IMG/VR virus record: IMGVR_UViG_3300032046_000013
Location: 1-64,000 of that record
Length of the DNA: 64,000 nucleotides
Strand: one strand, 5' to 3'
DNA from: a virus
Under the pieces are notes generated by a model, which was not told the DNA's origin, made no database searches, and worked only from the letters and a program-made list of their open reading frames with translations. How positions within the stretch are numbered: the stretch's first letter is position 1; each line of letters begins with the position of its first letter. Position numbers and translations under genes: made by a program. This document shows positions 29 through 61,120 of the stretch, piece by piece.

Positions 29-229
29 TCAACCACGATCCGCCTCGGACTTTTGGGTTTCTTGGACTGCCCGAATCAGGGACTCGAACCGCCGAGCTTG
101 ATCTTCCATCCGCTTCCGCATCTCCTCTACCAACGAATTCCGCACCCGCGTCAACTCCCCTACGATGGTCGGACTGACCCCCACCGTCGACCATGTTGGT
201 CCAGTTTCATTATCGCCATTATTTTGCGG
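29..229 (-). CDS. Short coiled-coil hypothetical protein downstream of the tnpB element; true start unresolved
   Basis: The C-terminal part of ORF 29..409 (VGELTRVRNSLVEEMRKRMEDQARRFESLIRAVQE) looks helical. The upstream part of that ORF is IS right-end sequence read in another frame. Confidence 0.35.
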   Translation of the reverse strand, partial: PQNNGDNETGPTWSTVGVSPTIVGELTRVRNSLVEEMRKRMEDQARRFESLIRAVQETQKSEADRG

Positions 230-400
230 CTTTTGACACTCTCCCACGGCTGAAGCCGGGAGATTCTTCAGAGGCATGATGCCTCCAAACGGCTCTGCCC
301 GAGCCTCAAAATATTCAAACTTGCATTGAAGTCCCGATCCACCGTGAGTCCACAATTTGGACAGGAATGGACGCGATCCGCCAGCGTCTTGGGAACTCGC
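213..400 (-). ncRNA. TnpB omegaRNA/reRNA overlapping the tnpB 3' end; guide = flank AAGCCGCAAAATAATGGCGA (232-213)
   Basis: Established TnpB architecture; hairpins GGAGGCATCATGCCTCT and CCCGGCTTCAGCCGTGGG precede TCAA. The 5' end is approximate. Confidence 0.7.
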
Positions 401-1473
401 TCGCCGCATTGGGAGCAGATTTGCGAAGTTCCTCGGGGGTTGACTTTGATTACCTCATGCGCAGCTTCCTCCGCTTTCGCCTGAAGCATACCAAGGAACA
501 GACCCCATGACGCATCAGTGATGGACTTCGAGAGTTTCGTTTTGCCATTTTCGATCAGGTTGATGACTTCCAAATCTTCGATGAAAATGCGATTGTAGTT
601 TTGTATGTAATGGTTCGCGGTTTTGTGCAGAAAATCCTCGCGCTGATTATGGATGTGTTCGTGGGTCTTGGCTACGATCAGCTTGGACTTTTGGCGGTTG
701 TTCGAGCCACGCTGCTTGGTCTGGAGCCGCCGTTGACGGTCAGCCAGAAGTTTCTGCGACTTACGAAGAAACCTCGGATTTTCCGTGACCTTCCCGTCGC
801 TGTCCACGGCAAAGTTTTTCAGCCCCACGTCGATCCCGACCTCCCGATTCGTGGGTTTGAACTCGCGCTTCGGCACATCGTCGCACGAAAAATAAGCATA
901 CCATCGGCCAGTCGGCGACCGTTTGATCGTTACCGTTTTGATCTGACCCTGGATCGGACGCGAGAGGTGGAGTTTGAAAACGCCGACACCCCGGATGTTC
1001 AAATTCTTGCCATTGAGCTTCCAGCCCGCGATGTAATCCAGAGTGAATGAATCGTAGCGATCTGCACCTCGATAACGAGGAAATCCTGCCTTTTCCTTAT
1101 GGGCCTTGCATCTGGAAAAGAATAGATTGAACGCCCGATCCACCCGCTTAATCACATCTTGCAGGGTATGGGAATACACGACTTTGAATTCTGGATATTG
1201 GTCTTTCAGTTCCCGTAATTGCCGCATCTGTTCAAAAGCCGTGGTCGAATGCTGGAACTCGCGGTAGTTGATGATCCGCTGTTCCAGAGTCAGATTATAC
1301 AAAGTGCGGCACAACCCAAGCCAACACAGGGCGTTGACTTCGGTCTTCCGACTCAGCCGAGCACGATATTTGAAAGTGCGACGCATGATCTATTCTAATC
1401 CAATCTACCCCTCGGCTCAAGCCAAGGGCCTGGAATCTCTTCTGTTATAGTATAGACCTTCTGTCCATGCTTG
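233..1473 (-). mobile_element. IS200/IS605-family tnpB-only (IS1341-like) element
   Basis: tnpB ORF; right-end hairpin ending GGGAGAGTG-TCAA at 233; left-end hairpin CCCCTCGGCTCAAGCCAAGGG at 1408-1428; no tnpA in the window. The left boundary is inferred from GCTTGA|CAAG. Confidence 0.8.
268..1386 (-). CDS. tnpB: RNA-guided endonuclease TnpB (372 aa)
   Basis: N-terminal MRRTFKYR...CRTLYN; GFPRYR; RuvC-I GIDVGLK, RuvC-II IFIEDL, zinc ribbon CSQC/CPNC, RuvC-III DRDFNAS. All three catalytic acids are present. Confidence 0.96.
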   Translation of the reverse strand: MRRTFKYRARLSRKTEVNALCWLGLCRTLYNLTLEQRIINYREFQHSTTAFEQMRQLRELKDQYPEFKVVYSHTLQDVIKRVDRAFNLFFSRCKAHKEKAGFPRYRGADRYDSFTLDYIAGWKLNGKNLNIRGVGVFKLHLSRPIQGQIKTVTIKRSPTGRWYAYFSCDDVPKREFKPTNREVGIDVGLKNFAVDSDGKVTENPRFLRKSQKLLADRQRRLQTKQRGSNNRQKSKLIVAKTHEHIHNQREDFLHKTANHYIQNYNRIFIEDLEVINLIENGKTKLSKSITDASWGLFLGMLQAKAEEAAHEVIKVNPRGTSQICSQCGERVPKTLADRVHSCPNCGLTVDRDFNASLNILRLGQSRLEASCL

Positions 1474-1477
1474 TCAA
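1449..1477 (-). promoter_or_regulatory. Sigma70-type promoter for tnpB
   Basis: TTGACA (1477-1472), 17-nt spacer, TATACT (1454-1449), about 60 nt upstream of the tnpB ATG. Confidence 0.7.
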
Positions 1478-1484
1478 GCACTTT

Positions 1485-15974: not shown

Positions 15975-16065
15975 AACTTACCCAAGTGTGGACAGGCCAC
16001 ACTGGGGTTTGGTTCCTGCTTCACCGAGAACCGCCCCCGTGGGTCTTACATCCTCTCCGCAGGCG

Positions 16066-16716
16066 TCACTTCCCGCCGACGAAAATTCCGTAGTAGGCTT
16101 TGCCCGCGCACAAACCGCTGAGCATCTCGACCTTGCCTTCGCCGCCATACAAGCGGTTTAACATCTCCTCTGTCAAATAATGCGGATGACCAGCCCCGAC
16201 GGGAACTTCCAACCAATCAAAGGCTCGGAGTATCCGCCCATGCTGTCGGGCTTGGGTCACTACTTGGGCGGGTTCCCGCACGTGCTGGAGCACATTGTAA
16301 ATCCAGACCTCATCGAATATCCCGATCTCGCCCAAGTTTTCGGCCATCACGGCCATCATCTCAATACCCACATGCTCATATTTGGACCTGACCCATGCGG
16401 GATATTCGCATGGATCGACCACGACGGCCCGGCCCCGGTTGTGGCATTTTAATAGAAGCGAGACCGGCCCGCCGCCGATGTCCAGCACGCTTCGACCTTG
16501 AAGATTGATCTGATACGGAGAAGTTCCGTCCAGATTTTCCCATTGGAGTCCCATCCGAGGAGCGTAGATTATTTGCTTCGCTTCTTCTGCATAGGTATTG
16601 ATGCACGCACCCCACCAGCGGGCTTCCCAAGCGGAATCCTGCTCCCAAGTCACGTTAAACTCCGAAAGTATTTGATCGTGCGCAATAATCCGACTTCCAG
16701 CGATGCGGGTTTCCAT
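16066..16716 (-). CDS. Class I SAM-dependent methyltransferase
   Basis: VLDIGGGP motif I; FDEVWIYNVLQHV. Confidence 0.85.
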   Translation of the reverse strand: METRIAGSRIIAHDQILSEFNVTWEQDSAWEARWWGACINTYAEEAKQIIYAPRMGLQWENLDGTSPYQINLQGRSVLDIGGGPVSLLLKCHNRGRAVVVDPCEYPAWVRSKYEHVGIEMMAVMAENLGEIGIFDEVWIYNVLQHVREPAQVVTQARQHGRILRAFDWLEVPVGAGHPHYLTEEMLNRLYGGEGKVEMLSGLCAGKAYYGIFVGGK

Positions 16717-19101: not shown

Positions 19102-21637
<2,536 letters not shown>

Positions 21638-26253: not shown

Positions 26254-27538
26254 AAATAACTTGGCCCGGAAACCCGCTCCGTTTACGGGGCGGGAGGAAG
26301 GGCCACTCCTTTCCAGGTTCGCCAACTATTGTAAGTTCGGAACCTGCAATCAGTCGGTTTTGCACTTTGGGTTAATCTCTGACCATCCACAATCCGATGC
26401 AGACTGATGCGTTGGCCCATCGTCCCGCCTACATATACAGTTCCGTATCGAGGATGCTCGATCAGGGAGCCACGCTTGAATCCCAAACTCCGGGTTCCGC
26501 CGTAGAGTTTTCTAATCCCGCCCTGGGCTGGTTGGAGCACATGAAGTTGCCGCCGGTGGAATCTCAGCGGAGCCATGCACAGAAGTTCCGTGTTGTCCGG
26601 TTTTATATGTCCGCCTGTCCAAGAGTTGGCGAGCACCCAGGAGTCAACGCAGTGGGCGGAGAACACTTCATCCAACTTTCCACCCGTCTTTTTCAGCCCA
26701 GCTTCGTCTCGTAATTCTCTCGTGTCGTAGCCCTGTTTTTTGTCCACCGGAGCCAGCTTGCTCAGTTCGGTATAGAACCAGGCTTTGCCGACTTCCAACG
26801 GCGAAAATGAGACATCCCACTTCCGTTTGCCTTTCGTCCGGGCCTTAATGTCCTCGACTACGAAGTGAGAGACCGGGAACAATTTCGACAATCCCTGCGC
26901 GATGCGAAGTTTAGCCTGCCACCGAGCGCGAGTCGAAGGTGGTAATGATCCTTTCGTCCGGTTAAATCGCGGTTGACGACAAGGCGTGTTCCGATTCCGC
27001 CGTGTCCTTCGTATCTCCCGCCGAGTTCTTACCGCACCCTTCACCCAGTCGACGGCCTGGGTCTGGATATTCAGATATGTATGTGCTTCCGACTTCACCG
27101 TGAACCCCTCGCGCTTGCTCCCCGGATCAATCCCCACGGCAACTTCCTGGACTTCCCGGCCTGACGGCTCGACATTCAGCCGAACACAAAACACTCCTTT
27201 GCTGAAAAACGGTGTGGCTTTTCCGTCCTTGATCCACCGTCTAGCCCTTGACGGAGTGGTGGGCATCAAAGGCTTCTGCTGGCTATCCACTACTGGAACG
27301 AACATGATAAGTCTCCCTTCGGAGTTTCTACGGCCCTTCGCGGCTGACGGTCGAAGAGGTTGCAAACTAGGGCGGCATTCGCAACGTCCTGCGGGCTACC
27401 ACGCCCAAAACCGTTCAGTTGGCTTCAATCGACTGTTTCCAATCTTGCCCACGCTAGTCTCCCGTTTGCTCTTTTGGCTTTCAAGTTGGTAGCCCTACTC
27501 GCCAAAAGCCCCTTCCCTTTAGGGGAGGGGTGGTTTAC
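26254..27538 (-). mobile_element. IS200/IS605-family isrB element 1
   Basis: 5' end GTAAACCACCCCTCCCTAAAGGGAAGGGGC hairpin; 3' hairpin CCCGCCCCGTAAACGGAGCGGG; isrB ORF; no tnpA. Confidence 0.85.
26283..27305 (-). CDS. isrB: IsrB RNA-guided nickase (HNH-less IscB relative, 340 aa)
   Basis: PLMP motif, RuvC-I GIDPGSK, Arg-rich bridge helix RREIRRTRRNR, RuvC-II VVEDI, RuvC-III AHCVDS; no HNH. Confidence 0.88.
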   Translation of the reverse strand: MFVPVVDSQQKPLMPTTPSRARRWIKDGKATPFFSKGVFCVRLNVEPSGREVQEVAVGIDPGSKREGFTVKSEAHTYLNIQTQAVDWVKGAVRTRREIRRTRRNRNTPCRQPRFNRTKGSLPPSTRARWQAKLRIAQGLSKLFPVSHFVVEDIKARTKGKRKWDVSFSPLEVGKAWFYTELSKLAPVDKKQGYDTRELRDEAGLKKTGGKLDEVFSAHCVDSWVLANSWTGGHIKPDNTELLCMAPLRFHRRQLHVLQPAQGGIRKLYGGTRSLGFKRGSLIEHPRYGTVYVGGTMGQRISLHRIVDGQRLTQSAKPTDCRFRTYNSWRTWKGVALPPAP

Positions 27539-28277: not shown

Positions 28278-29589
28278 AGAAAAATCGGCGAGGGAACCCG
28301 CTCCATTCACGGGGCGGGAGGAATCGCCGCCTCCTTTCCGAGTCTTGTGATCCAATGTCCGCAGGCCCAAGCCAACTTCCGGGTTGACTGCCTGCGGCCC
28401 CGTTGATCGTAGTAGCGGTAGCCACCGCGATATTCGCCGCACAACCGACCCTGATTCCCGTCCGGGCGGCCTACCAGCAGTCCTTTCCGCAGTCCGAACA
28501 CCGTGCCCTGGGAATATCGGGCGCGGATTCCCCCTGGGGCTGGCTGGGTATCATGCAACTGCCGCCGCACTGGACGATACGTGTCGTCCACCACGATCAT
28601 TCTTCCTGGCTCAATCCGCGAACCTTCGCCCGCTTCACAAGCTAAGGCCAGAGCATCCGAGCAATGAGCCTCGAACCGATCCGCATGTTTGTCCGCAATC
28701 TTCCGATAGCCGTATTGGAGCCGCAAGTCCTTCGTATCATAGCCCGCAAATTCATGCAGTTCAGCATGGGCCTCTATAAATTCCCGGATACGAGCCTTTC
28801 CGATCTCGACCGTGGAGAAGTTCGCACCCCACCGTTTATGCGCATGGTCAAACCGCACGTCCTCTAATCCCACGGACTGAATCGGATAGCAGGAAAAAAA
28901 CTTACGCAACATCTTCAACCGGGAGCCGACAATCATCGCCTGGGACGGGGCCAAAAATCCTGCGCGACTTCGGTTGTCGAACCGCTGGGGCCGTCTCCGA
29001 CAATTACGGAACCTCCGCGCTCTTCGCAAATGCCGCCGTGCTTCCAACTTCTTCACCAATAACTTCTTGCTCGGCAAGTCCAACTTCACGGCCAAGTTGT
29101 TTTCCGTCCCGCACACCACGGCATAGCCCTCGAACTTCGTTCCGTGGTCCACCCCCAGCGTTGTTACCAGAGTCTCGTGTCGCGTCTCGACCAACATCTG
29201 AATCCCCATCTCGTTGAACCTGCTCCACACGGGTTTCGCTACTCTGGCTCGCATCAGTTTCCTCGCCTTGGCAGGCGTCATGGGAGTCAATGGATGACCA
29301 CCCTTGCTCACAACCCACACCGAATGGTTGGCCAGTTTAACGCCGACATGCGGCCCGCGCTGGCCTCGCGGTAATCTCTCCTCGGGGTTGCGATCTGGGC
29401 TTAGCGAGCGATCTCGCATGGCATTCAGCGGTTCTGCCGAAGCGGGCACAACTGGAGAAGCATTGTGCCGTTCTTGAAGTAGTCCTGATCGCGTCTGCTG
29501 ACTCCTCATCGTTTTCTCAGCCCCCTAGTCAACCCTTGCGTTGCAACCGCCGTCACAAGCCCGCTCCCTTCAGGGGGCGGGTGGTTGAC
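28278..29589 (-). mobile_element. IS200/IS605-family isrB element 2
   Basis: 5' end GTCAACCACCCGCCCCCTGAAGGGAGCGGGC; 3' hairpin CCCGCCCCGTGAATGGAGCGGG nearly identical to element 1. Confidence 0.85.
28307..29320 (-). CDS. isrB: IsrB RNA-guided nickase, divergent clade (start uncertain, GTG ~29320)
   Basis: PLTP, GVDHGTK, RRHLRRARRFR, GLEDVRF, AHCSDAL, RRQLH; no HNH. The first ~60 aa of the track ORF lie in the omegaRNA region. Confidence 0.82.
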   Translation of the reverse strand: MWVVSKGGHPLTPMTPAKARKLMRARVAKPVWSRFNEMGIQMLVETRHETLVTTLGVDHGTKFEGYAVVCGTENNLAVKLDLPSKKLLVKKLEARRHLRRARRFRNCRRRPQRFDNRSRAGFLAPSQAMIVGSRLKMLRKFFSCYPIQSVGLEDVRFDHAHKRWGANFSTVEIGKARIREFIEAHAELHEFAGYDTKDLRLQYGYRKIADKHADRFEAHCSDALALACEAGEGSRIEPGRMIVVDDTYRPVRRQLHDTQPAPGGIRARYSQGTVFGLRKGLLVGRPDGNQGRLCGEYRGGYRYYDQRGRRQSTRKLAWACGHWITRLGKEAAIPPAP

Positions 29590-29609: not shown

Positions 29610-31054
29610 GAATAACCCCAGCCGATAACATTGACCGTAATTCCCAATATGCCAGCAACGGTAGCCCACCATTCGATCCAATGATTATCCATCAACACGG
29701 GAATTATCATCGGGTTTTCGTTGTAGTATAGAACCGAACGAACGGTGGCACCTTTGGCGTCCCCGGGTTTGCGAAATTCCACATTGGAAGTTCCGTCATA
29801 AGGGTTCCCGCTGAGCATGACTTCCAGGAAAGCCACAGTCGTTCCCTGGGGCGCAACGGCGGATAAATCCAGGATTTGCCAACCTTCCGAAGATTCAGTT
29901 AAGGCCGCATCCAACACCGTGAGAGCAATCACGGACTCAGAGAAATCTGGCGGAGGCATTGGCAAGTCGCTTTGATTATGGACCAGATCGGAATACGATG
30001 GATAGCGAACATCAAAAGTATCGTCTGGCAGTAACCCATCTGCTTCAGGAGTGCCCATCACGGTAATTTCTTTGGTATCCTCATTATTGCCCGTGATAGT
30101 ATATTGATGACCACGAATGATACCGGAGGTGACAACTACTATCAGATTCTTTAACGAATCGTCTGGATAGCCAGTCACGCTGTAAATGTGGGTGCTTGAC
30201 ACATTAGTAACCGTGTCCTGCGCATAAACGCCTTCGTGCTGTAATACGAAACAATTCGGATTTACAGTGCCATGGTAAATCTCAACACAAGTTAATGTAT
30301 CGAGGCTAAGAATCGGAGTTGAGAAATCCATGTTGACCAATATCGGGTTTATCAGATTAAGAACCATGCCTGATTCGACCAGCAATCCATTGGTGCATTC
30401 GATTGCTCGATGGTTCGTGTCGACATTGAGAATCATGGGCAAAACCAGACTCAATATCGGTTTAATGTTCGCTTTTTTACTGATCGCCACCGCCGCGCCA
30501 GTATTACCCAAGCCGAATATGCTTTCGAGGGCATAGATAGTCCCTCCTGAACACAGAAGGGAATTAACGCAGGTGCCACTCATGATTCCCGAAGCCACCA
30601 CCCGATGAATCAGAATCTGTGCTCCAGACCGGACTTCGATCAGGGCTGGTTTATTAACCGTATTGCCGGTCACCATATTTAATAGCGTAAAATATTTGCC
30701 TGAACCTGGATCGATGGTAATAAGATTTACCCCGGTATTGGATGTGCCTACCAGATATGCACCATCTTCAAATTTGAGAATCGCATGATCGTGTGCGGCG
30801 GTGATCGATAGGTCCTCGGCGTATTTACCAGGACAGACCAGAACCTGGGGCCATTTACCCGAGGCTCGCAAAATGGCTGTGCGGGCCAGACCCTGGGTGA
30901 TCGTCGGATAATGGTTAAGTTCGTCATCGGCCTCGAATGTCGGAGAGACCTCGATGAACGCATCGGAAGGACAACCCCCTGGACCAGGAACTCCCCTGGG
31001 ACCCCGAGGCCCTTCGGGACCCGAAGTCAGTTCTGGAATGTTGATAACCGGCAT
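29597..31054 (-). CDS. Tail fibre/spike-like protein with short collagen segment and beta-helix-like region
   Basis: GPEGPRGPRGVPGPGG; YPTITQGL...VLVCPGKYAEDLSI; start at 31054 by TGATG overlap. Confidence 0.6.
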   Translation of the reverse strand: MPVINIPELTSGPEGPRGPRGVPGPGGCPSDAFIEVSPTFEADDELNHYPTITQGLARTAILRASGKWPQVLVCPGKYAEDLSITAAHDHAILKFEDGAYLVGTSNTGVNLITIDPGSGKYFTLLNMVTGNTVNKPALIEVRSGAQILIHRVVASGIMSGTCVNSLLCSGGTIYALESIFGLGNTGAAVAISKKANIKPILSLVLPMILNVDTNHRAIECTNGLLVESGMVLNLINPILVNMDFSTPILSLDTLTCVEIYHGTVNPNCFVLQHEGVYAQDTVTNVSSTHIYSVTGYPDDSLKNLIVVVTSGIIRGHQYTITGNNEDTKEITVMGTPEADGLLPDDTFDVRYPSYSDLVHNQSDLPMPPPDFSESVIALTVLDAALTESSEGWQILDLSAVAPQGTTVAFLEVMLSGNPYDGTSNVEFRKPGDAKGATVRSVLYYNENPMIIPVLMDNHWIEWWATVAGILGITVNVIGWGYSDTT

Positions 31055-31377
31055 CACATATTCCTGCCCATGACCTGAATCGAGAAATTGGATGGTGTAA
31101 CGGCCACGACCCGCATCCGCCATTTCTGAAGTGCGTAGGAAACGAAGAGGATCGTCGGTTCGGCCTGGCCCGTCACGGCCTGATTAAACGCATCCGTCCG
31201 CCATTGGTCATCCAGCCACAGATCGAAATAGATGTCGAGATCAACATCGGTCACGACGAATATCGAAAAGGGCAGAAGCACTCCCTCGGACATCAGGATC
31301 GGATTGGACGTATAGGTTCCAGCATCCCTCGCGGCCAAGGGAAAAATCGGTCCACCGTCCATAAAAATCTCAGGCAA
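31054..31377 (-). CDS. Small beta-rich virion protein
   Basis: Strong GGAGGAGG RBS before TTG 31377 (alternative ATG 31362); coupled to the next gene. Confidence 0.5.
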   Translation of the reverse strand: MPEIFMDGGPIFPLAARDAGTYTSNPILMSEGVLLPFSIFVVTDVDLDIYFDLWLDDQWRTDAFNQAVTGQAEPTILFVSYALQKWRMRVVAVTPSNFSIQVMGRNM

Positions 31378-31506
31378 GGTTTTATCCTCCTCCTCCACAA
31401 AGCGACTCAGGGACCTTAGACTCCTGAGAGTTTCCGAGAGTCCGAGCGAGCACATTCAATTTGCTTTCGGTAGCAAATTCTAGGGATATTTTTGCTGAAC
31501 GAATCA

Positions 31507-32358
31507 TTAAGACATGACTCCTTCAAAATACGATTGATATCCTGGAATTAAGCCGATCACCCTGAAAATCCTGAACGGCAATCTCTGGCTCTTGAGTCCG
31601 ATAGGCTGTGGCGGTGTCGCCTTTTTCCATCCTTCAATGGCCTGATCCCATGATTGTCGTAATTGGGAAGCCAAAGCCTGGTATCGGGGTCCCCGATCAA
31701 TGCTCAAGCTATGGCCGTCGGTGTAGCTCATGGCATTCGCTATTTCCATCCGAGCGCGGCTTTCCAGGGCATAGATCAGGCCCCCGGTCGTTATCAGGTC
31801 CTCCGGCACGGTATCAAAACTCAGGGGCCGGTATTGCGGACCGCGAATCACGATATGATCCAAGGCGTTGGCCAGACAGGTCATCAGGGTGTCGGTCGGC
31901 CATTGAAACACAGGCTCATCCAGCCGATACCAACTCACCAGATCGTCCATTAGTCGGATGCGCAACTGTGTGATGTAATACTGCAGCATCGTGATCTCGC
32001 CGATCTCGATCACGCCTCCGATCAGTATTTTCAGGTTCCGGCCCTGATAAGTCAGATCACCCGTGAATTCGATTCGATACAGGCCGAACTCCATGAAGGA
32101 CGGAAGAAAACTGATGCTGTAGCGACCAGTTCCCAGATGTTCAAGAATTACTGACCCGCCTTCGGCCAGGGTTCCGCTTACCAGTTGGAGATTCAGAACG
32201 ACTTCGCCCTCGCGGAGGACCCGGGCGCGAGGGTTATCCACGTCCGCGAGATTGGATTGCGGATCACGGAAGCTAACCCGGATTGAAATCAGGGCTTGCT
32301 TCTTCTGCTCCCGCACCTCATTGGGTAGGGTTGCCCCGAACTCGAAGACTCGGGCCAC
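31507..32358 (-). CDS. Head-tail adaptor-like protein with Ig-like N-terminal domain
   Basis: VSFRDPQSNLADVD...GTGRYSI (Ig-like); helical C-terminus LRIRLMD...YTDGHSLSIDR; downstream of the MCP. Confidence 0.55.
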   Translation of the reverse strand: MARVFEFGATLPNEVREQKKQALISIRVSFRDPQSNLADVDNPRARVLREGEVVLNLQLVSGTLAEGGSVILEHLGTGRYSISFLPSFMEFGLYRIEFTGDLTYQGRNLKILIGGVIEIGEITMLQYYITQLRIRLMDDLVSWYRLDEPVFQWPTDTLMTCLANALDHIVIRGPQYRPLSFDTVPEDLITTGGLIYALESRARMEIANAMSYTDGHSLSIDRGPRYQALASQLRQSWDQAIEGWKKATPPQPIGLKSQRLPFRIFRVIGLIPGYQSYFEGVMS

Positions 32359-32366
32359 AGCATCTC

Positions 32367-32849
32367 CTATCGAGCACCGGACCCGATCTGGGTAGCACGG
32401 TCTTCTTCCTCAGCTTGCCTCTTCACCTCTTCCAACCGAATGTCATATTCATTATCGACCGTCGGGTCTGCGAACTCGTTCATCTCTTTACCGCGTTGCC
32501 GTATCACCCCGGCTGGACTGGAAACCGGATTCCCGGGAACCGGCTCGCCCACTTCCAACTCGACCAAGAACTTGCGTTCGATGAAATCGCGGATCGCCCG
32601 GGACTTCAATAGTTGCTCATCCGTGTAGTAGGCCCCGAGGTCTTTGGTCTCGTGCGGTTCCAGTGTCTCGAAACTCACCATCTGGCCCAGGGCGTTCTGG
32701 GTGCCGAGGTCACCGAGGAACAACCGGGTGTCGGTCATGTTCTTGAACCGCCGCCGCCCCGTGGTGCTGGCCTTCTCGGGTTGAGTATCGAATAACTTTT
32801 TCGGTGTCCCGGTAATCCCCTCGTTTCGGTCGCCTGCTTGCTCGCTCAT
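32367..32849 (-). CDS. Hypothetical capsid-proximal protein (160 aa)
   Basis: Start MSEQAG with GGAGG RBS and ATGA overlap; FKNMT..L.L...L.P...DL pattern shared with the upstream gene. Confidence 0.6.
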   Translation of the reverse strand: MSEQAGDRNEGITGTPKKLFDTQPEKASTTGRRRFKNMTDTRLFLGDLGTQNALGQMVSFETLEPHETKDLGAYYTDEQLLKSRAIRDFIERKFLVELEVGEPVPGNPVSSPAGVIRQRGKEMNEFADPTVDNEYDIRLEEVKRQAEEEDRATQIGSGAR

Positions 32850-33397
32850 TTCATCCCTCCTGTTTTTCTGCGTCCCCTTCCGGGAACGGTTTCCGCATCG
32901 GTGCGGCTCACCCCGAATAGTGCCGTCGATGACGGCGGTTCGGGAATCTCTGGTTCTGGCAAAGGAACTGGTGGTTCTGCTGGATTTGATGTTGACACTC
33001 TCCCAAGAGGTATGGTGCCTCCTTGATTGCTTGGCCCATAACCATCGGTCGGCGGTCGATGTGGCGGAGACACTGACTGAGCGACCATACACAGAGCCAA
33101 TGCCTTGTCCAAATCGGTGAATCGCCGCAGTTCTGCCGGTGTCCAATTTTGGAGATCAATCCATCCGTTCGGACTGAGACTGATCTTTTCCCGAGACGGT
33201 TTGACACTCCCCACGGCTAAAGCCGGGAGATTCTTCAGAGGCATGATGCCTCCAAACGGCTCTGCCCGAGCCTCAAGGCGCAGGGCGTTGCCCTCGGTAT
33301 CTGAGCGGCGATTCCGGTCAAGCCCTGGTGGCGAGTTCAGAACCAACTTCGCCACCGTCACGTTGGTAAAAATTGTGCCTTTATCCAGATCAACCAT
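32846..33397 (-). CDS. Hypothetical capsid-proximal protein carrying an in-frame IS right-end insertion
   Basis: First gene after the MCP; EARAEPFGGIMPLKNLPALAVGSVK is encoded by tnpB-derived DNA. Confidence 0.6.
   Translation of the reverse strand: MVDLDKGTIFTNVTVAKLVLNSPPGLDRNRRSDTEGNALRLEARAEPFGGIMPLKNLPALAVGSVKPSREKISLSPNGWIDLQNWTPAELRRFTDLDKALALCMVAQSVSPPHRPPTDGYGPSNQGGTIPLGRVSTSNPAEPPVPLPEPEIPEPPSSTALFGVSRTDAETVPGRGRRKTGGMK
33201..33276 (-). ncRNA. Stand-alone copy of the TnpB omegaRNA 3' scaffold/right end (guide ACCGTCTCGGGAAAAGATCA, 33200-33181)
   Basis: Matches 233-309 at 75 of 77 positions (one substitution, one 1-nt deletion); ends in TCAA. Confidence 0.8.
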
Positions 33398-33462
33398 CGA
33401 AAGGGAGGGGCGGGGTCTCACACCGCCGCCCGCTCCCGTTCCTTTCGTGTCCTGATCACCGA

Positions 33463-34404
33463 TTAGGCGATGATGCTATGGGTCATCTTGGCCACGCCGT
33501 TGGCGCAGGTGATGGCCAAGCCGATCAGTTCGTAGCCCACGAGACCCAGGCGCAGATTCTTCGGATCATCCGCCGGGATCACGTCCACGTCTTTACGGAT
33601 CGGCATCCATCCGCAGAACTTCGGAGTCGCCAGGACAAAGACTCGGCCCGCAGTGATCTGGTCCGACACGTAGTAGTCGGCTCCCCAGTGGGAACCCAGG
33701 TAGCCAGATTCCCGGACTTCCTGCATTCCGACCTGGTCCAGGTCCTGGAAAGTCCAACGCCGGATGCCTTGGGTGCCGTAGGGACTCATCAGAACTGCCG
33801 CTGGCACGAGCCGGTGCCGTTCCACCTCGGTAAAGAGCCGAGCCAGATGGTCCCGGTCCATGTAGGTGCTACTGGTGATCGCCGTGTTGTTGATCGTCGA
33901 GGCGGTATTCAAGGCACCGAACCCGATGAGGTCCTCCCGGAGTTCCATCCCCTCGATCAGCCGGTCCTTGGCACGGTCCAAGGCCCGGAAACGCCGGGTG
34001 TAGAGTTCCCGGTAGGGAATCTGCGGAGTCGCCACGATCTCGAACGGTTCGACCTCTATGCGGGCACCCTTCATCTCGACCATCCGGTTGGTCCCGAATC
34101 GTCCGACCTTGACCGCCGGAACGTCCGGCAAGTCCTTGTCGTAGATCAGGGGCACGCCGTCCGGCATCTGCTCGATCACCACGAACTTCCGAAAGATGCC
34201 CTTGTAGTCGAGTTTGGTGCGAACCGGGTTGGCCATGTTCGCTGCGATCTTCCGCAGTCCCATCTCCGACTGCATGACCCGGGACAGCGCGGCCTCTTTC
34301 TGCATCAGCCGCTGGGCCTGTTGAACTCGGCCCTGGTGGGTCGAGTAATCGGGATGATACGACCGCCGATTCACGGTAGTTACGGGGGCACTTTGAGTTT
34401 TCAT
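33463..34404 (-). CDS. Major capsid protein (HK97/encapsulin-like fold, 313 aa)
   Basis: GLRKIAANMANPVRTKLDYKGIFRK, GVPLIYDKD, FEIVATPQI, G.HWGADYYVS, GLVGYELIGLAI; strongly biased codons; follows protease-scaffold-decoration. Confidence 0.88.
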   Translation of the reverse strand: MKTQSAPVTTVNRRSYHPDYSTHQGRVQQAQRLMQKEAALSRVMQSEMGLRKIAANMANPVRTKLDYKGIFRKFVVIEQMPDGVPLIYDKDLPDVPAVKVGRFGTNRMVEMKGARIEVEPFEIVATPQIPYRELYTRRFRALDRAKDRLIEGMELREDLIGFGALNTASTINNTAITSSTYMDRDHLARLFTEVERHRLVPAAVLMSPYGTQGIRRWTFQDLDQVGMQEVRESGYLGSHWGADYYVSDQITAGRVFVLATPKFCGWMPIRKDVDVIPADDPKNLRLGLVGYELIGLAITCANGVAKMTHSIIA

Positions 34405-34416
34405 CTGTTCACCTCC

Positions 34417-34896
34417 TTATATCAAGATCGGGGCCTGGTAAACGTCCAGGGCGGTCGGGGTTGAGGACGGCAGGCCGTCGCCACTGACGATCTTGAGATA
34501 TGCGGACTTGCCGGTGCCGTTGTCGTTGTCCCACAGACCATCGGCTCCGACATACAGCGGATCATTCAGGCTGTAAGTCCCGCCAGTCGGAGTCTCGGTC
34601 CACGGGGTCGTCCCGTCGGCCTCGGGGATCAATCGAAGTTTGTTGCAACCGAAGATCACGGTGCAGATCAGGCTATCCGTCTGCACTGTCTCCGCGATCT
34701 GGATGTCGCCCTTCAGATCATACACCGAGTTGTTTTGGAACACCCCGATGATGTCATCCGAAGTGGCGAGTTTGGCGCCGGAGGCTCCGAGTTTCGCCGG
34801 GGACCCGCCGTAATACGGGTTGGACGCCGCATCAGCGGCGTCCAGGGCGATTTCCCCGTCTTTGAAGCCACCCCACTGAAGGATGTCAACTGACAT
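34417..34896 (-). CDS. Capsid decoration/cement-like protein
   Basis: Between scaffold and MCP; YSLNDPLYVGADGLW beta motif; start MSVDIL. Confidence 0.65.
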   Translation of the reverse strand: MSVDILQWGGFKDGEIALDAADAASNPYYGGSPAKLGASGAKLATSDDIIGVFQNNSVYDLKGDIQIAETVQTDSLICTVIFGCNKLRLIPEADGTTPWTETPTGGTYSLNDPLYVGADGLWDNDNGTGKSAYLKIVSGDGLPSSTPTALDVYQAPILI

Positions 34897-34949
34897 GTTT
34901 TTCTGCTCTCTATTCTGTGCTCGTCGCTGAGCACGGTCTGGTTCCCATT

Positions 34950-37172
34950 TCAATCATCCCACATGCTTTCCAGCGAATCCGTGAGTTCATCGCCGCCTTG
35001 AACCAACGGCAGATGTTGCGCGGTCTTTTTCAACCCCTGGACCGGCACGGGCCGGATGTCCTTGGCCATTGCCGCCACGTGCTCGAACTCCCCGGAAGTC
35101 ATTTTCACGTAGTTTGCCACCTTTTCCGGTATCTCCATCTGGTCGATCTGCCCTTTTTCCAGAAGCAAGATAGCGACCTTCAGGGCCGGGCCTACCCGGG
35201 CTAACCGCTGATTTCTCGCCTCGATTTCGGCACTGAGCGCGGATGCGACTTTCAATACCGGAATCGCTTCGGCCAGACAACGATTAGCCAACTTCACGGC
35301 CTGTCCGATTTTCGCCCGATGCTCTTTAATCCCCGCCTTGTTTGGGCGGATTTTCATCAGGCTTTCGATCTGATCCCCCACTGTCTTCGTATTGACCATC
35401 AGGCCACTGATGGCCGAGGTCAAGTTCTTGGTGGTGGATTTCAGGGCCGCGTCTTTTTTCCACGAACTGGCCAATGCCCGTAGCTGATCATGCGTTCCGT
35501 CGAGGATTTTCAGCCGGGCCACGATTCCTTTTTTCTCCGCCGAGGTCATGGCCGTGGTGCCCGCCACATCCTCCCGATGTTCGGCATTCAGATAGGCATC
35601 GGCGGAGTTCGCCACTTGCTGGGTCTCGGGCGAGGTCAGGGAAGTATCCGAGCCTTGGGAAATTTCATCTGGTGTTCGGGTTCCCGCATCCGGGCCTGTG
35701 TATTCCGGGTGTTCGCCTGCGGGAACCGAAGCCGCGCCGGGATCGAGTTTCCGGTCCTCGGCCATCCGCAGATACCGCTGGAATTCCCGAACGGCTTTCC
35801 GATACTGGGCATTGGAAACCCGGATGGATCGCGCATGTTTGCGTCCGATCTCCTGAACCGCTTTTTCAAATGTCAAGCCCGAGGCTATGCGCTTTTTGAC
35901 CTCGGCCAAAGCCGAAGCCATGATTTTATGGACAAACACTTTGGTGGATTCCACTTGTTTCCACCGACGATGTATGACCGATGCCTCGATTTGGTGTCGG
36001 ACGTGCGCCTGATCCATCCCGGAGATCTGGAGTTTTTTCGCCTGTTTGATCATCGCCCTTCGATAGGCCCCCTTCATTTGCGCATAATCCGTATCCGAGG
36101 CCCCACCGAACTCCTGGGGCATTCGCGCTTTCGGCGTTGAAGGTGATCCAGTCCGAGCCTCCTGGGCCAGAGCCTGATCCGGGTCAGGACTTCGGGTCAT
36201 GTCCGGGATATCGACCGCCGCATGGGGCACCTTGGGATTTGGTTCATTCGAGGCCGGGGTTCCCACATCGGCCCCGGTCTTGTTAGTGCGACCCATCGTT
36301 CGGGTTCCGCTACCTGATCGTTTACCGCCCTGGGATTCCAACGCCTGGATCGCGGATTGGGGATCGCCAAAATCATCAGACGGGCCAACCCGACTCATGG
36401 TCTTGGTATCGTAATATCCGACCGAACCATCGCCTTGGACTATCGCTGTCAGGCCATCGGGCATCAGGTAACTTCCGTGAACTGTTGCTTGCTTGGCTCC
36501 GATGGTCGGAATCTCGGCCTTCTCTGCCACATCGGTCAAGGCTTTTAACACTTCCTGCTCGGTTTTCACCTGATCTGCCCGGGTTCTAATCTCCTCCTGG
36601 ATGATCGCATCGGTGCCACCGCTGGGTTTGCCCGGGGCCGCTACCGGGGTTTCTGCCGGTTCTTCAGCTTCTTCTTTCGGCGCGGGTTCGCCCCCCAGTT
36701 CCGGTCCCTCGGCTGGTCTCTGGCCTGGCCCAGTGGGTTCGCCCTGGGCTTCTTTGGCCATCAGGTGCAGGGCCTCGGCATTGGCCGTGGCCACGGCGGT
36801 GATCGCTTGCACTTGCCGCTTCTTCACGGCCAGAGTGTAATTGATGTCGGTTTCCTGCTTGGCCGTCTGCACCTGGGACCCGCCCATGCTGGCCACGGGC
36901 GGTGCTCCAGGTTCCCGAGTCTCCTGGGCCTGGGCCGCCACGGCCTGAGTCTGGGTTCCGTAATCCCCTGCGTCGTGCTGAGTCTGGATGTTCGACGCGG
37001 CCCGCACGTCCCCGCTTTCGGTTTGGGCCGTTTTTACTCCCGTTTTGATTCCCGCTTCCGCAGACTTCGCTTCCGCCGTCTTCATTTGTTCCTCCTGCAA
37101 GCCGAGTATTTTCCCAAGTTTCTTGAATGATCGGCCAAGTGCGGCCTGACTCCGATCAACATTCTCCGCCAT
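34950..37172 (-). CDS. Scaffolding/prohead core protein (740 aa)
   Basis: Between protease and MCP; low-complexity and helical; many K-x-A motifs; GGGGAGG RBS. Confidence 0.65.
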   Translation of the reverse strand: MAENVDRSQAALGRSFKKLGKILGLQEEQMKTAEAKSAEAGIKTGVKTAQTESGDVRAASNIQTQHDAGDYGTQTQAVAAQAQETREPGAPPVASMGGSQVQTAKQETDINYTLAVKKRQVQAITAVATANAEALHLMAKEAQGEPTGPGQRPAEGPELGGEPAPKEEAEEPAETPVAAPGKPSGGTDAIIQEEIRTRADQVKTEQEVLKALTDVAEKAEIPTIGAKQATVHGSYLMPDGLTAIVQGDGSVGYYDTKTMSRVGPSDDFGDPQSAIQALESQGGKRSGSGTRTMGRTNKTGADVGTPASNEPNPKVPHAAVDIPDMTRSPDPDQALAQEARTGSPSTPKARMPQEFGGASDTDYAQMKGAYRRAMIKQAKKLQISGMDQAHVRHQIEASVIHRRWKQVESTKVFVHKIMASALAEVKKRIASGLTFEKAVQEIGRKHARSIRVSNAQYRKAVREFQRYLRMAEDRKLDPGAASVPAGEHPEYTGPDAGTRTPDEISQGSDTSLTSPETQQVANSADAYLNAEHREDVAGTTAMTSAEKKGIVARLKILDGTHDQLRALASSWKKDAALKSTTKNLTSAISGLMVNTKTVGDQIESLMKIRPNKAGIKEHRAKIGQAVKLANRCLAEAIPVLKVASALSAEIEARNQRLARVGPALKVAILLLEKGQIDQMEIPEKVANYVKMTSGEFEHVAAMAKDIRPVPVQGLKKTAQHLPLVQGGDELTDSLESMWDD

Positions 37173-38484: not shown

Positions 38485-38557
38485 ACCCCACGGCTCAAGC
38501 CAGGGGCTTTCTCGAAGGATTCTGTAAGGTTTCACGGGAAACATGTAAGCCAGATTA
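38485..38557 (-). mobile_element. Orphan IS605-type end (left-end-like hairpin)
   Basis: 38485-38507 matches the tnpB left-end hairpin 1407-1429 at 21 of 23 nt. Confidence 0.55.
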
Positions 38558-39578: not shown

Positions 39579-40485
39579 CGAAAAACCGATCATTCCCGTC
39601 CATCAATGGACTCACGACGGCGACAAAGTGCTCTTAATCAAGTGCATCAACGCTGACGGCACCAGTGGCCCAAAAAACGAATTCATCTGGCCTAAATCCG
39701 GTCCAGTTAAAAGTCCCCAGTGGGACGGGAAGCCGACCTGCGATGGTGGTGGTTTATTCGGTTGGCCGTGGGGAATCGGAATAGGCAGTGGAAAGGACCC
39801 AGATTATCAGGGAATCTGGATCGTGTGGGCAACTGACCCAAACAGGATTATCGTGGTTGATAATGAAAAGACGAAGGCCCCGGATGGAGAAGTGCTTTAC
39901 TATGGGGAATGGGTCGGAGCTTTTCGGATGGTGCTGCAAGGGCAGATTGCGTGGATTCAGCAATCATCAAGGGGGGCCGCAAGTGCCACGGGTGGGCAGG
40001 GGGCCGCAAGTGCCACGGGTTGGCGGGGGGCCGCAAGTGCCACGAGTTGGCAGGGGGCCGCAAGTGCCACGGGTTGGCAGGGGGCCGCAAGTGCCACGGG
40101 TTGGCAGGGGGCCGCAAGTGCCACGGGTAGGCAGGGGGCCGCAAGTGCCACGGGTTGGCAGGGGGCCGCAAGTGCCACGGGTAGGCAGGGGGCCGCAAGT
40201 GCCACGGGTTGGCAGGGGGCCGCAAGTGCCACGGGTGAGCAGGGAATCGCCACCATCACCGGAGACGAAGGCACAATCGAGGTTGGCTTTGGCGGTATTG
40301 CAGCGGTCTGTGCGAAAGTTGTAATCTGGAAAGTTCATAAAGATGCCGTGCTGATTCAACGATGGAAAGATTTCCGGAACCATTACCAAACGGCAGTGCT
40401 CTATCCCAAAAAACTTCGGCTAAAAACTGGACGGGTAGTCAAGGTAGTTAAGGGAAAAATCCAGAAGAAGAATTCTCATGGCTGA
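39571..40485 (+). CDS. Phage repeat protein with 10 x GAASATGxQ
   Basis: N-terminal F.WP.SG.V..P.W...CxGGLxGWPWG domain followed by 9-aa repeats; AGGAG RBS. Confidence 0.8.
39973..40242 (+). repeat. 27-bp coding tandem repeat, 10 copies
   Basis: Unit ggggccgcaagtgccacgggttggcag; variation is confined to the last three codons. Confidence 0.95.
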
Positions 40486-60934: not shown

Positions 60935-61120
60935 GAAGTGTCCCGACTCGATCTGTGATACGCTCCCCCGCATGAATGCGGGGGCATCTCGGATCAGACA
61001 TGGGCCTCACCCGATACGCTTGTCGGTTCTACGATCCGGCTTACTTTTCTGTAACGAAAAGCAGGGGCCGTGATCTCCCCGACCGTCACTTCGGGCGTAA
61101 CCCGCCCTAGTTCGAGAATG
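60935..61120 (-). ncRNA. Orphan TnpB-type omegaRNA/IS right end of a second family (guide AGATCGAGTCGGGACACTTC)
   Basis: Hairpin CCCCCGCATTCATGCGGGGG (60984-60965), then AGCGTA-TCAC ending at 60955; upstream GGGCGGGTTACGCCC hairpin; reads ILELGRVTPEVTVGE like a tnpB tail; no tnpB ORF attached. Confidence 0.6.

What the first reader, a model, noticed from the sequence alone, without database searches (positions are those of the whole stretch)
33181..33280. TnpB omegaRNA scaffold copied in-frame into the gene after the major capsid protein, with a new guide
Seen: 33201-33276 equals 233-309 except for one substitution and one 1-nt deletion. That deletion makes the insert after CTTGA exactly 72 nt, so the ORF stays open (ALRL-EARAEPFGGIMPLKNLPALAVGSVK-PSREK; empty form ALRLEPSREK). 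The insert lies in a segment that is shorter in the neighbouring paralog. Inference: dual-use DNA, both protein loop and guide RNA, directing the resident TnpB to CTTGA+ACCGTCTCGGGAAAAG in uninserted alleles as a minimal homing cassette in a highly expressed operon. Only the 3' ~75 nt of the scaffold is present, so function is not assured.
Basis: partly seen in the sequence, partly recalled or inferred. Interest (0 to 1): 0.8.

Follow-up and report, generated by a model that had tools for sequence, protein, structure and literature searches.

The report
Gene-less TnpB transposon end in phage
A 72-base leftover of the phage's own TnpB jumping gene (its right end and guide-RNA stem-loops, without the nuclease gene) sits in frame in an orphan reading frame behind the capsid gene; gene-less pieces of this kind are already known, and nothing yet shows that this one works.

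Summary
The repeat is real. Window 33200-33276 matches 233-309, the 3' end of an intact tnpB (268-1386, minus strand), at 97% over 78 nt.

It ends exactly where this IS608-like family ends, at TCAA. In 63 of 63 IMG/VR relatives the flank diverges after TCAA.

A covariance model built only from relatives matches the copy end to end (45.9 bits, E 2.5e-10). It aligns both terminal hairpins.

So this is a gene-less right-end / omegaRNA-core module with a new flank. No left end lies upstream.

The indel is mis-polarised. The 72-nt copy has the family-consensus spacer (59 of 63 loci). The tnpB-linked copy carries an extra A (0 of 63).

The "gene" is an ORFan with no homologue and no paralogue, and its codon usage is mixed.

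The phage record is full of OMEGA parts: two TnpB genes, two IsrB-like ORFs, a TnpA, and at least two further gene-less cores.

Most likely it is a truncated hitch-hiking remnant. A working trans-acting guide is not excluded. It is a new member of a known kind (PATE-like elements, stand-alone omegaRNAs).

The parts
33201..33272 (-). 72-nt gene-less right-end / omegaRNA-core copy: three stem-loops, the last being the TnpA-type subterminal hairpin, ending in TCAA
   Evidence: 97% identical to 233-309. The covariance model from 30 relatives matches 33201-33283 over model positions 1-124 at 45.9 bits. DNA fold shows three hairpins.
33273..33276 (-). TTGA shared by the donor (306-309) and the recipient; a 4-nt microhomology at the left junction
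   Evidence: Read directly. No homology lies upstream of it.
33181..33200 (-). Flank directly 3' of the transposon end; the would-be guide if an omegaRNA is made here
   Evidence: Position relative to the TCAA end. No second site in the 86-kb record matches its first 16 nt with fewer than 3 mismatches.
233..309 (-). The same module at the 3' end of the resident tnpB (overlaps its last 13 codons and stop); carries one extra A and a C in the hairpin loop relative to the family consensus
   Evidence: (44.9 bits).
268..1386 (-). tnpB, 372 aa, apparently intact
   Evidence: Pfam OrfB_IS605 7.6e-26 and Cas12f1-like TNB 2.4e-22. ISDra2 TnpB structures E 1.2e-49.
1409..1477 (-). Left-end region of the resident element: LE hairpin 1409-1428 and a sigma-70-like promoter 1449-1477. 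The left boundary is undetermined (candidates after 1473 or 1446).
   Evidence: 11 of 12 promoter match; hairpin 10.4 bits.
32992..33022 (-). Older, decayed relic of the same right end: middle hairpin (15 of 17) joined to the terminal 14 nt (14 of 14), with the TnpA hairpin deleted
   Evidence: E 0.096 for the 14-mer alone; two adjacent collinear hits.
32846..33397 (-). ORF A (183 aa from ATG 33397; 191 aa from GTG 33421), the orphan frame that contains both relics; its stop overlaps the ATG of the next gene
   Evidence: No homologue. No Pfam or PHROG family. Codon score 0.2 at the N-terminal end falling to -0.36 at the C-terminal end.
33242..33253 (-). GGAGG, 4 nt, ATG inside the insert, in the ORF A frame; the public gene call (132 aa) starts here
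   Evidence: P0001 is 132 aa and 100% identical to residues 52-183. Sequence read.
33463..34404 (-). Major capsid protein gene upstream
   Evidence: phrog_2522, E 3.5e-43.
32367..32849 (-). Next gene (160 aa from ATG 32849, AGGAGG upstream); by position it corresponds to the small gene that follows the capsid gene in distant relatives
   Evidence: The gene after it (31507-32358) matches the L004 273-aa gene at E 9e-13.
60955..61119 (-). Another gene-less omegaRNA-core module of a related family (ends TCAC)
   Evidence: Model R1, 42.9 bits, E 1.5e-9, positions 1-124. Sequence read.
15989..16102 (-). Another gene-less core with a decayed terminal hairpin, in an intergenic gap
   Evidence: Model R1, 34.9 bits, E 1.8e-7..

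Best explanation
The stretch is a gene-less, 5'-truncated copy of the right end of the phage's resident IS200/IS605-family (IS608-like, TCAA-ended) TnpB element.

Shown: it consists of the element's last 72-76 nt. That is two small stem-loops, the subterminal TnpA-type hairpin and the terminal TCAA. It is joined on its left to unrelated phage DNA at a shared TTGA and on its right to a new flank. It has no left end.

Inferred origin: a longer or full copy once lay here, 3' of a TTGA(C) motif. Most of it was then lost, either by deletion across the TTGA microhomology or by incomplete copying during repair. Only the end module remained.

Inferred present state: it cannot transpose by itself because it has no left end. 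It is co-transcribed with the late genes because it has the same orientation and no promoter of its own. It is tolerated because 72 nt without a stop codon in that frame does not close the orphan frame it lies in.

It is most likely a passive hitch-hiking remnant, one of several in an OMEGA-rich phage genome. Whether TnpB still loads an RNA from it is open.
For: Identity and boundaries:
- Searches give 97% identity over 77-78 nt, and homology stops sharply on both sides.
- All 63 IMG/VR relatives end at TCAA. The next base is random (T 22, G 18, A 16, C 7).
- In two other sediment metagenomes many contigs match only about 33201-33235 and have unrelated flanks.

Family membership: covariance model R1 was built from 30 relatives, with 14 of 26 pairs covarying. 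It hits 33201-33283 at 45.9 bits, E 2.5e-10.

No left end: the best local alignment of the resident LE to the 186 nt upstream scores 15, and 211 of 500 shuffles reach that score. R1 finds no LE-type hairpin there, although it finds those at 1408-1428 and 38485-38509.

Remnants are common in this family and this genome:
- 7 of 33 unique IMG/VR loci with at least 1000 nt upstream lack tnpB. They keep 29, 30, 117, 175 or 201 nt of the end.
- A decayed second relic lies 180 nt away.
- Two more gene-less cores are in the window.
- A truncated tnpB lies next to tnpA at 84.2-85.1 kb of the record.

The host frame is weak as a gene:
- No homologue or paralogue.
- Relatives have only 105-124 nt between the capsid gene and the next gene.
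- Codon score falls to -0.36 in the C-terminal third, against 0.33 +/- 0.16 for this phage's genes.

Precedent: core deletions of IS605-type elements down to 52-bp terminal-only forms are described (passages of PMC3119063).
Against: - The copy is not decayed. Its two differences from copy 1 are both the family-consensus state.
- Its 5' edge falls exactly at the foot of the first stem-loop, which the model aligns to the first conserved hairpin of the relatives' core. It is therefore a whole structural unit rather than a random cut.
- Natural processed omegaRNA scaffolds as short as 79 nt are reported (passage of PMC10278001). At 72-76 nt it may be nearly complete.
- The frame it sits in is longer than expected by chance. 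72 of 2000 dinucleotide shuffles give 183 or more open codons. The frame ends in an ATGA overlap with the next gene.
- A nuclease gene together with gene-less modules in one phage genome recurs on at least two other IMG/VR contigs.
- No uninserted allele was found, so the deletion-versus-insertion history is inference only.
Confidence: 0.6

Rival explanations
1. It is a working stand-alone omegaRNA module. Late-operon transcripts carry the compact scaffold plus the adjoining 16-20 nt. The resident TnpB loads this RNA and cuts DNA that has the TAM next to that sequence, which means co-infecting relatives without the insert. The result would be copying-in of the module by recombination (homing) or exclusion of the rival.
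For: - An apparently intact TnpB is in the same genome.
- The module is a whole structural unit and keeps the consensus sequence.
- It has the same orientation as the late genes.
- Processed scaffolds range down to 79 nt, and the subterminal hairpin is the only consistently conserved feature (PMC10278001 passage).
- Stand-alone omegaRNAs are reported to work in trans (PMC10691335 passage; PMC10055086 passage).
- Other phage contigs combine one tnpB with gene-less modules.
- The left flank ends in TTGA. This resembles the TTGAT TAM of ISDra2 TnpB, which is among the closest solved relatives.
Against: - The 5' extent of this element's native omegaRNA is unknown and may reach further into tnpB.
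- The whole-region RNA fold is not better than shuffles (z -0.83).
- No promoter lies directly upstream.
- The TAM is undetermined. With TTGAC as TAM, the present left flank plus flank would be off by one base.
- Other relics of 29-30 nt, and the decayed relic 180 nt away, show that plain decay happens.
Confidence: 0.22
2. The insert was kept because it supplies a ribosome-binding site and ATG (GGGAGG-type box, 4 nt, ATG) that starts translation of the downstream frame. The expressed product would be the 132-aa protein that the public gene call predicts. The same internal ATG in copy 1 reads, thanks to the extra A, into the interrupted small gene beyond the element.
For: - The public gene call starts at 33244.
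- In copy 1 the frame from the same ATG runs into the flank ORF 232->29. That ORF has gene-like codon usage (0.30 against -0.71 and -0.51 in the other frames).
- A GGGAG box and GTG at 1479-1481 are in frame with that ORF if the element is removed at 1473 or 1446. This fits a gene split by the insertion.
- The extra A is unique to copy 1 (0 of 63 relatives).
Against: - There are only two cases.
- One boundary in three would give the same frame.
- The spacing of 4 nt is short.
- The ATG-bearing hairpin is not conserved in relatives.
- There is no expression data.
Confidence: 0.1
3. It is a complete miniature transposon (PATE) that TnpA moved as a unit into a TTGA site of an existing gene. This is the clean 72-nt insertion the first reader pictured.
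For: - A Y1 TnpA is encoded in the record at 84559-85086.
- The insert lies directly 3' of TTGA and ends in the family's TCAA.
- 52-bp terminal-only forms are suspected to move in Haloquadratum (PMC3119063 passage).
Against: - It has no left-end hairpin and no left-end guide/target pair.
- The whole 72 nt is collinear with the right end only.
- The resident TnpA belongs to an element with a different end type, shared with the second TnpB at 78.8 kb.
- Family left ends sit 17-18 nt from TTAC, TTAT or TGAC targets, not TTGA.
- Only one such copy is in the record.
Confidence: 0.05
4. It is an assembly artefact: the repeat was placed here by a mis-join of the de Bruijn graph.
For: Independent Logan contigs of the probable source run break inside the repeat. 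One contig ends at 33276 and the next starts at 33247. None spans the repeat.
Against: - Each junction is covered by a contig with 0 differences (32000-33276 and 33247-34600), at equal depth 12.3 and 12.9.
- Two different left contexts and two different right contexts exist. A tnpB-less right end must therefore exist however the 57-nt identical core is resolved.
- The alternative path would split tail genes and head genes onto two molecules.
Confidence: 0.03

Closest known systems
Stand-alone (effector-less) omegaRNAs of OMEGA systems
   Same: A guide-RNA module without a nuclease gene, in a genome that also holds a compatible nuclease locus. Such modules are reported to act in trans (passage of PMC10691335).
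   Different: This one is only 72-76 nt and has no promoter of its own. It lies inside an open reading frame, and its activity is untested.
PATEs (palindrome-associated transposable elements) of IS200/IS605, including omegaRNA-bearing PATE-like elements of Geobacillus stearothermophilus
   Same: A gene-less derivative of an IS605-type element that keeps a near-terminal palindrome and the terminal oligonucleotide (passages of PMC3119063 and PMC10055086).
   Different: PATEs have both ends. Here no left end was found. It is a single copy, not a dispersed family.
Terminal-only, core-deleted IS605-type elements of Haloquadratum walsbyi (for example the 52-bp form of ISHwa23)
   Same: A tnpB element reduced to a few dozen bases by deletion (PMC3119063 passage).
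   Different: Those deletions run between the two similar end palindromes and fuse left and right ends. Here the retained piece is collinear with the right end only, and the junction is a 4-nt TTGA.
IS608 / ISDra2 (IS200/IS605 family) and ISDra2 TnpB
   Same: - TnpB matches ISDra2 TnpB structures at E 1.2e-49.
- The subterminal hairpin lies about 10 nt from the end.
- Relatives show left-end target and guide tetranucleotides that covary: AAAG with TTAC, AAAA with TTAT, CAAG with TGAC.
- That IS608 uses TTAC and TCAA is my recollection; it comes from no call.
   Different: The resident element has a very short 3' untranslated part. Its stop codon lies 35 nt from the end, whereas in relatives the aligned TnpB similarity (to residue 359-370 of 372) ends 121-184 nt from the end. 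It also lacks the central two helices of the relatives' core.

Membership tests
IS200/IS605 right end (IS608-like) | Subterminal imperfect hairpin within about 10 nt of the element end | tested here: met
   The hairpin is aligned with posterior marks at maximum by model R1. The same hairpin is present in 63 IMG/VR loci.
IS200/IS605 right end (IS608-like) | Fixed terminal oligonucleotide, after which copies have unrelated flanks | tested here: met
   TCAA in 63 of 63 loci. The next base is T 22, G 18, A 16, C 7. Contigs of two other metagenomes start their match at 33200/33201.
IS200/IS605 right end (IS608-like) | Lies at the 3' end of tnpB (or tnpA-tnpB) | tested here: not met
   Met for 233-309. 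For 33201-33276, tblastn with TnpB finds only the 14 shared codons and nothing upstream.
PATE (gene-less IS200/IS605 mini-transposon) | A left end with its own hairpin and target motif, paired with the right end | tested here: not met
   Local alignment of the LE to 33277-33462 scores 15, reached by 211 of 500 shuffles. There is no R1 hairpin hit there.
PATE (gene-less IS200/IS605 mini-transposon) | Several mobilised copies, or filled and empty sites | tested here: not met
   There is one such copy in the 86-kb record. No joint skipping it appears in 3 runs, but these are contigs and depth is low, so absence is weak. There is no close relative to compare.
Stand-alone omegaRNA | Complete scaffold as used by the cognate nuclease | tested here: inconclusive
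   R1 aligns the copy globally (positions 1-124) with 37 central positions absent, exactly as in the tnpB-linked copy. The native 5' end of this omegaRNA is unknown. The shortest reported scaffolds are 79 nt.
Stand-alone omegaRNA | Compatible effector gene in the same genome | tested here: met
   tnpB 268-1386 carries the same end module.
Stand-alone omegaRNA | Expressed and active in trans | not testable with these tools
   No RNA run holds the stretch.
In-frame insertion in a protein-coding gene | The host frame is a real, conserved gene | tested here: inconclusive
   No homologue, no paralogue, no family. The frame is open beyond chance at about 3.6%. Codon score is gene-like only in parts.

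The most novel reading that the evidence does not exclude
The 72 nt are truly dual-use. They are translated as a 24-residue segment (or serve as the start) of a late phage protein. At the same time they are the complete, unusually short scaffold of a trans-acting omegaRNA, whose guide makes the phage's TnpB cut rival genomes lacking the insert. With the other gene-less cores at 16.0 and 61.0 kb, the phage would then carry a dispersed guide set served by one nuclease gene, used for homing or for excluding co-infecting relatives.
Probability: 0.07. Interest if true: 0.7.

Novelty: new member of a known kind. Interest (0 to 1): 0.3.

Why it matters
If the module were active, it would be among the shortest natural TnpB guide scaffolds. 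It would also be an example of a phage using a transposon nuclease with several dispersed guides against rival phages, and that could be tested with a plasmid-interference assay.

As the evidence stands, it mainly documents two things. IS200/IS605 elements decay in phage genomes into end-only modules at permissive spots of the late operon. And an apparent in-frame insertion into a gene can rest on an orphan frame.

It also gives a clean family-wide definition of this right end from 63 IMG/VR loci, and a covariance model that finds further gene-less modules.

Tried and rejected
- Rfam (E up to 1) on 1-1600 and 32300-33600: no family.
- blastn of 31000-36000 against phage records: no match.
- Closer relatives of the phage: the capsid protein found only 38% relatives in IMG/VR and metagenomes. 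One 61% relative sits on a 1.8-kb contig that ends 138 nt after the capsid gene, so no uninserted allele could be read.
- Close relatives of this TnpB: one 38% archaeal hit in genome contigs and none in IMG/VR.
- Exact 29-mer of the middle hairpin and a degenerate LE-hairpin pattern in IMG/VR: 0 loci each.
- No RNA holder listed for the stretch. No joint or empty form in the contigs of 3 runs.
- Extended homology to tnpB upstream of 33276 (a decayed full copy): none.
- A left end upstream: none.
- Paralogy of ORF A with its neighbours: none.
- Second targets for the three flank 'guides' in the 86-kb record: none with fewer than 3 mismatches in 16.
- The second hit of the all-protein search was a 1590-aa protein at E 1.1e-4, with 17 short stretches on the Pro-rich tail. 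I took it as low complexity and did not examine it.
- TAM: I could not fix the left boundary of the resident element. The 17-18 nt geometry of relatives points to about 1446. Target/guide covariation and similarity to ISDra2 point to TTGAC at 1473.
- Literature: searches found no paper on gene-less TnpB end modules inside phage structural operons. One search returned 0 papers. I read only passages (find mode) of PMC10055086, PMC3119063, PMC13565253, PMC10691335 and PMC10278001. Supplements were not opened and may hold element lists that bear on novelty.
- I did not fold ORF A or use the protein atlas. Without any homologue a model would not have been informative.
Full report
**What the window is.** The window is the first 64 kb of an 86-kb IMG/VR virus record from a sediment metagenome. 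Nearly all genes lie on the minus strand: 24 of 27 frames with at least 280 codons from their first ATG.

- The major capsid gene is 33463-34404 (phrog_2522, E 3.5e-43).
- An apparently intact tnpB is 268-1386. It has Pfam OrfB_IS605 at 7.6e-26 and the Cas12f1-like TNB domain at 2.4e-22. It matches ISDra2 TnpB structures at E 1.2e-49, with the GIDVG, IEDL and DRD motifs aligned.

**The observation.** The repeat is real.
- 243-309 and 33210-33276 are 99% identical over 67 nt.
- The whole match is 77-78 nt at 97%, with one substitution and one 1-nt indel.
- A 33-mer from it occurs exactly twice, and 0 of 100 shuffles give two matches.
- Homology stops sharply at both ends. Neither tblastn with TnpB nor sensitive blastn finds anything more upstream of 33276.
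- From the base after TTGA (33273-33276) to the terminal TCAA is 72 nt (33201-33272).

**What the sequence is.** A degenerate pattern for the hairpin and end found 63 loci in IMG/VR.
- In all 63 the conserved sequence ends at TCAA. The next base is T 22, G 18, A 16, C 7. The transposon end is therefore at 33201.
- In two other sediment metagenomes many contigs match only about 33201-33235 and have unrelated flanks on both sides.
- Most of these loci have tnpB upstream, and several have tnpA as well.
- Their left ends carry a similar hairpin placed 17-18 nt from a TTAC, TTAT or TGAC motif. That motif covaries with the four bases before the hairpin. This is the IS608 type of end architecture. 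The IS608 motifs themselves are my recollection.
- The last 124 nt of 30 relatives fold into a conserved structure with compensatory changes in 14 of 26 pairs.
- A covariance model of that structure was built without any sequence of this window. It hits 33201-33283 at 45.9 bits (E 2.5e-10) and 233-317 at 44.9 bits.
- Both hits run over model positions 1-124. The first hairpin and the terminal hairpin are aligned, and 37 (copy 2) or 48 (copy 1) central model positions are missing.
- The finding is therefore the right-end / omegaRNA-core module of the resident element, without the nuclease gene.

**Polarity of the indel.**
- The family says otherwise. 59 of 63 relatives have the spacer form of the 33.2-kb copy, 4 have another form and 0 have the form next to tnpB.
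- The loop base of the 33.2-kb copy is also the majority state (56 of 63).
- The inserted copy is therefore the consensus, and the tnpB-linked copy gained one A.
- The left edge is ambiguous by up to 4 nt because TTGA is shared.
- By my count the insert is stop-free in 2 of 3 frames, so about 2 in 9 such insertions would leave a frame open.

**Is it in a gene?** The evidence is mixed and mostly negative.
- The frame (ORF A, 183 aa from ATG 33397) has no Pfam or PHROG family.
- It has no homologue in the word-indexed search of 5.8 billion clusters. The only hit is the window's own 132-aa gene call, which starts at the ATG inside the insert.
- It has no real homologue in an all-against-all HMMER search of 1.84 billion representatives.
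- It has no paralogue in the record. The 'neighbouring paralog' is therefore not supported.
- Distant relatives of the phage have only 105-124 nt between the capsid gene and the next gene.
- The gene two places downstream is conserved (E 9e-13). The roughly 610-nt ORF A region is thus lineage-specific extra DNA.
- Codon usage is gene-like over the first 40 codons (about 0.2). It is mixed in the middle (0.0 to 0.3) and unlike genes in the last third (-0.36). This phage's genes score 0.33 +/- 0.16 and off-frames -0.53.
- In favour of a gene: an open run of 183 or more codons appears in only 72 of 2000 dinucleotide shuffles. The stop also overlaps the ATG of the next gene.

**No left end, and a second relic.**
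- The 186 nt upstream hold nothing like the resident left end (score 15, reached by 211 of 500 shuffles). They hold no hairpin that the model recognises.
- About 180 nt downstream, at 32992-33022, lies a decayed piece of the same end. The middle hairpin (15 of 17) is joined directly to the terminal 14 nt (14 of 14), and the TnpA hairpin is deleted.
- This spot has therefore received or retained such ends at least twice, and decay is visible here.

**Context: an OMEGA-rich phage.**
- Two RRXRR (IsrB-like) ORFs lie at about 26.8 and 28.8 kb.
- A second tnpB lies at 78.8 kb with a different end type.
- A Y1 tnpA lies at 84559-85086, followed by a tnpB cut after about 67 codons. Its end is of that second type.
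- Gene-less cores lie at 60955-61119 (42.9 bits) and 15989-16102 (34.9 bits). A left-end-type hairpin lies at 38485-38509.
- In IMG/VR, 7 of 33 unique loci with enough upstream DNA lack tnpB. They keep 29, 30, 117, 175 or 201 nt of the end.
- Two contigs carry both a tnpB copy and a gene-less copy.
- Earlier notes of this scan list many similar phage cases. I treat those as leads only.

**How it most likely arose and what it does.**
- The right boundary is a transposon end. The left boundary is a 4-nt microhomology inside the element. This fits loss of most of a longer copy, or incomplete copying during repair. It fits better than transposition of a 72-nt unit.
- If the original target was TTGAC followed by the present flank, a deletion between the flank's TTGA and the internal TTGA gives exactly what is seen. 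TTGAC is suggested by the target/guide covariation in relatives, by the TTGAT TAM of ISDra2 and by restoration of the flank ORF at copy 1. This step is inference.
- Core deletions of IS605-type elements to terminal-only forms are documented (PMC3119063).
- Today the module has no means to move. It is presumably co-transcribed with the late genes and is tolerated.

**What keeps the functional reading alive.**
- The copy is undecayed and consensus-like.
- It begins at the foot of the first conserved hairpin.
- Natural scaffolds go down to 79 nt, with the subterminal hairpin as the only constant feature.
- Stand-alone omegaRNAs are reported to work in trans.
- I put a working guide at about 0.2.

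**Assembly.**
- Logan contigs of the probable source run break inside the repeat, as expected for a 57-nt identical core with k = 31.
- Each junction is nevertheless covered without differences and at equal depth.
- Two left contexts and two right contexts exist, so a tnpB-less right end must exist whichever way the graph is resolved.

**Verdict.** The object is a gene-less right-end / omegaRNA-core remnant of the resident IS605-family element, lying in an orphan frame. It is a new member of a known kind. The frame-tuning deletion, the paralogue and the CTTGA TAM are not supported. Function as a guide is possible but unshown.

Noticed in passing
G000 record 84258-85086 (outside the window; locus L071 1185-2013): There is a Y1 transposase gene (PF01797, E 9e-36, 175 aa) followed by a tnpB cut after about 67 codons.
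   Followed up: partly
G000 record about 78.5-79.9 kb (locus L074): A second tnpB (380-codon frame) is present. Its right-end hairpin and terminal GGTTGAC match the end next to the tnpA remnant, not the TCAA-type end of the finding.
   Followed up: partly
window 26841-27299 and 28841-29320, minus strand: There are two RRXRR-family (IscB/IsrB-like) ORFs of 370 and 405 codons (E 3.3e-40 and 4.1e-34).
   Followed up: no
window 60955-61119 and 15989-16102, minus strand: There are two more gene-less omegaRNA-core modules at gene junctions (model R1, 42.9 and 34.9 bits). The first ends in TCAC. The second has a decayed terminal hairpin.
   Followed up: partly
window 38485-38526, minus strand: A lone left-end-type hairpin sits with TTAC exactly 17 nt upstream. 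That is the geometry of the family's left ends, and no tnpB follows.
   Followed up: no
window 29-309 and 1446-1493, minus strand: - The resident element seems to split a small gene. A GGGAG box plus GTG (1479-1481) comes into frame with the gene-like flank ORF 232->29 if the element is removed at 1473 or 1446.
- The ATG inside the right end reads into that ORF only because of the extra A that is unique to this copy.
   Followed up: partly
IMG/VR loci L006-L068: - An IS608-like family with a near-invariant right end occurs at 63 loci in viral contigs.
- 7 of 33 assessable unique loci are gene-less.
- In three related contigs (L024, L025, L027) a 201-nt gene-less end begins within the last codons of the same conserved upstream gene.
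   Followed up: partly
IMG/VR loci, left ends: The four bases before the left-end hairpin covary with the target motif: AAAG with TTAC, AAAA with TTAT, CAAG with TGAC.
   Followed up: no
window 19770-21290 and 39918-40295: There are long arrays of 9/18-nt periodic repeats (a collagen-like Gly-X-Y type coding repeat by its period) and ten 27-nt tandem units.
   Followed up: no
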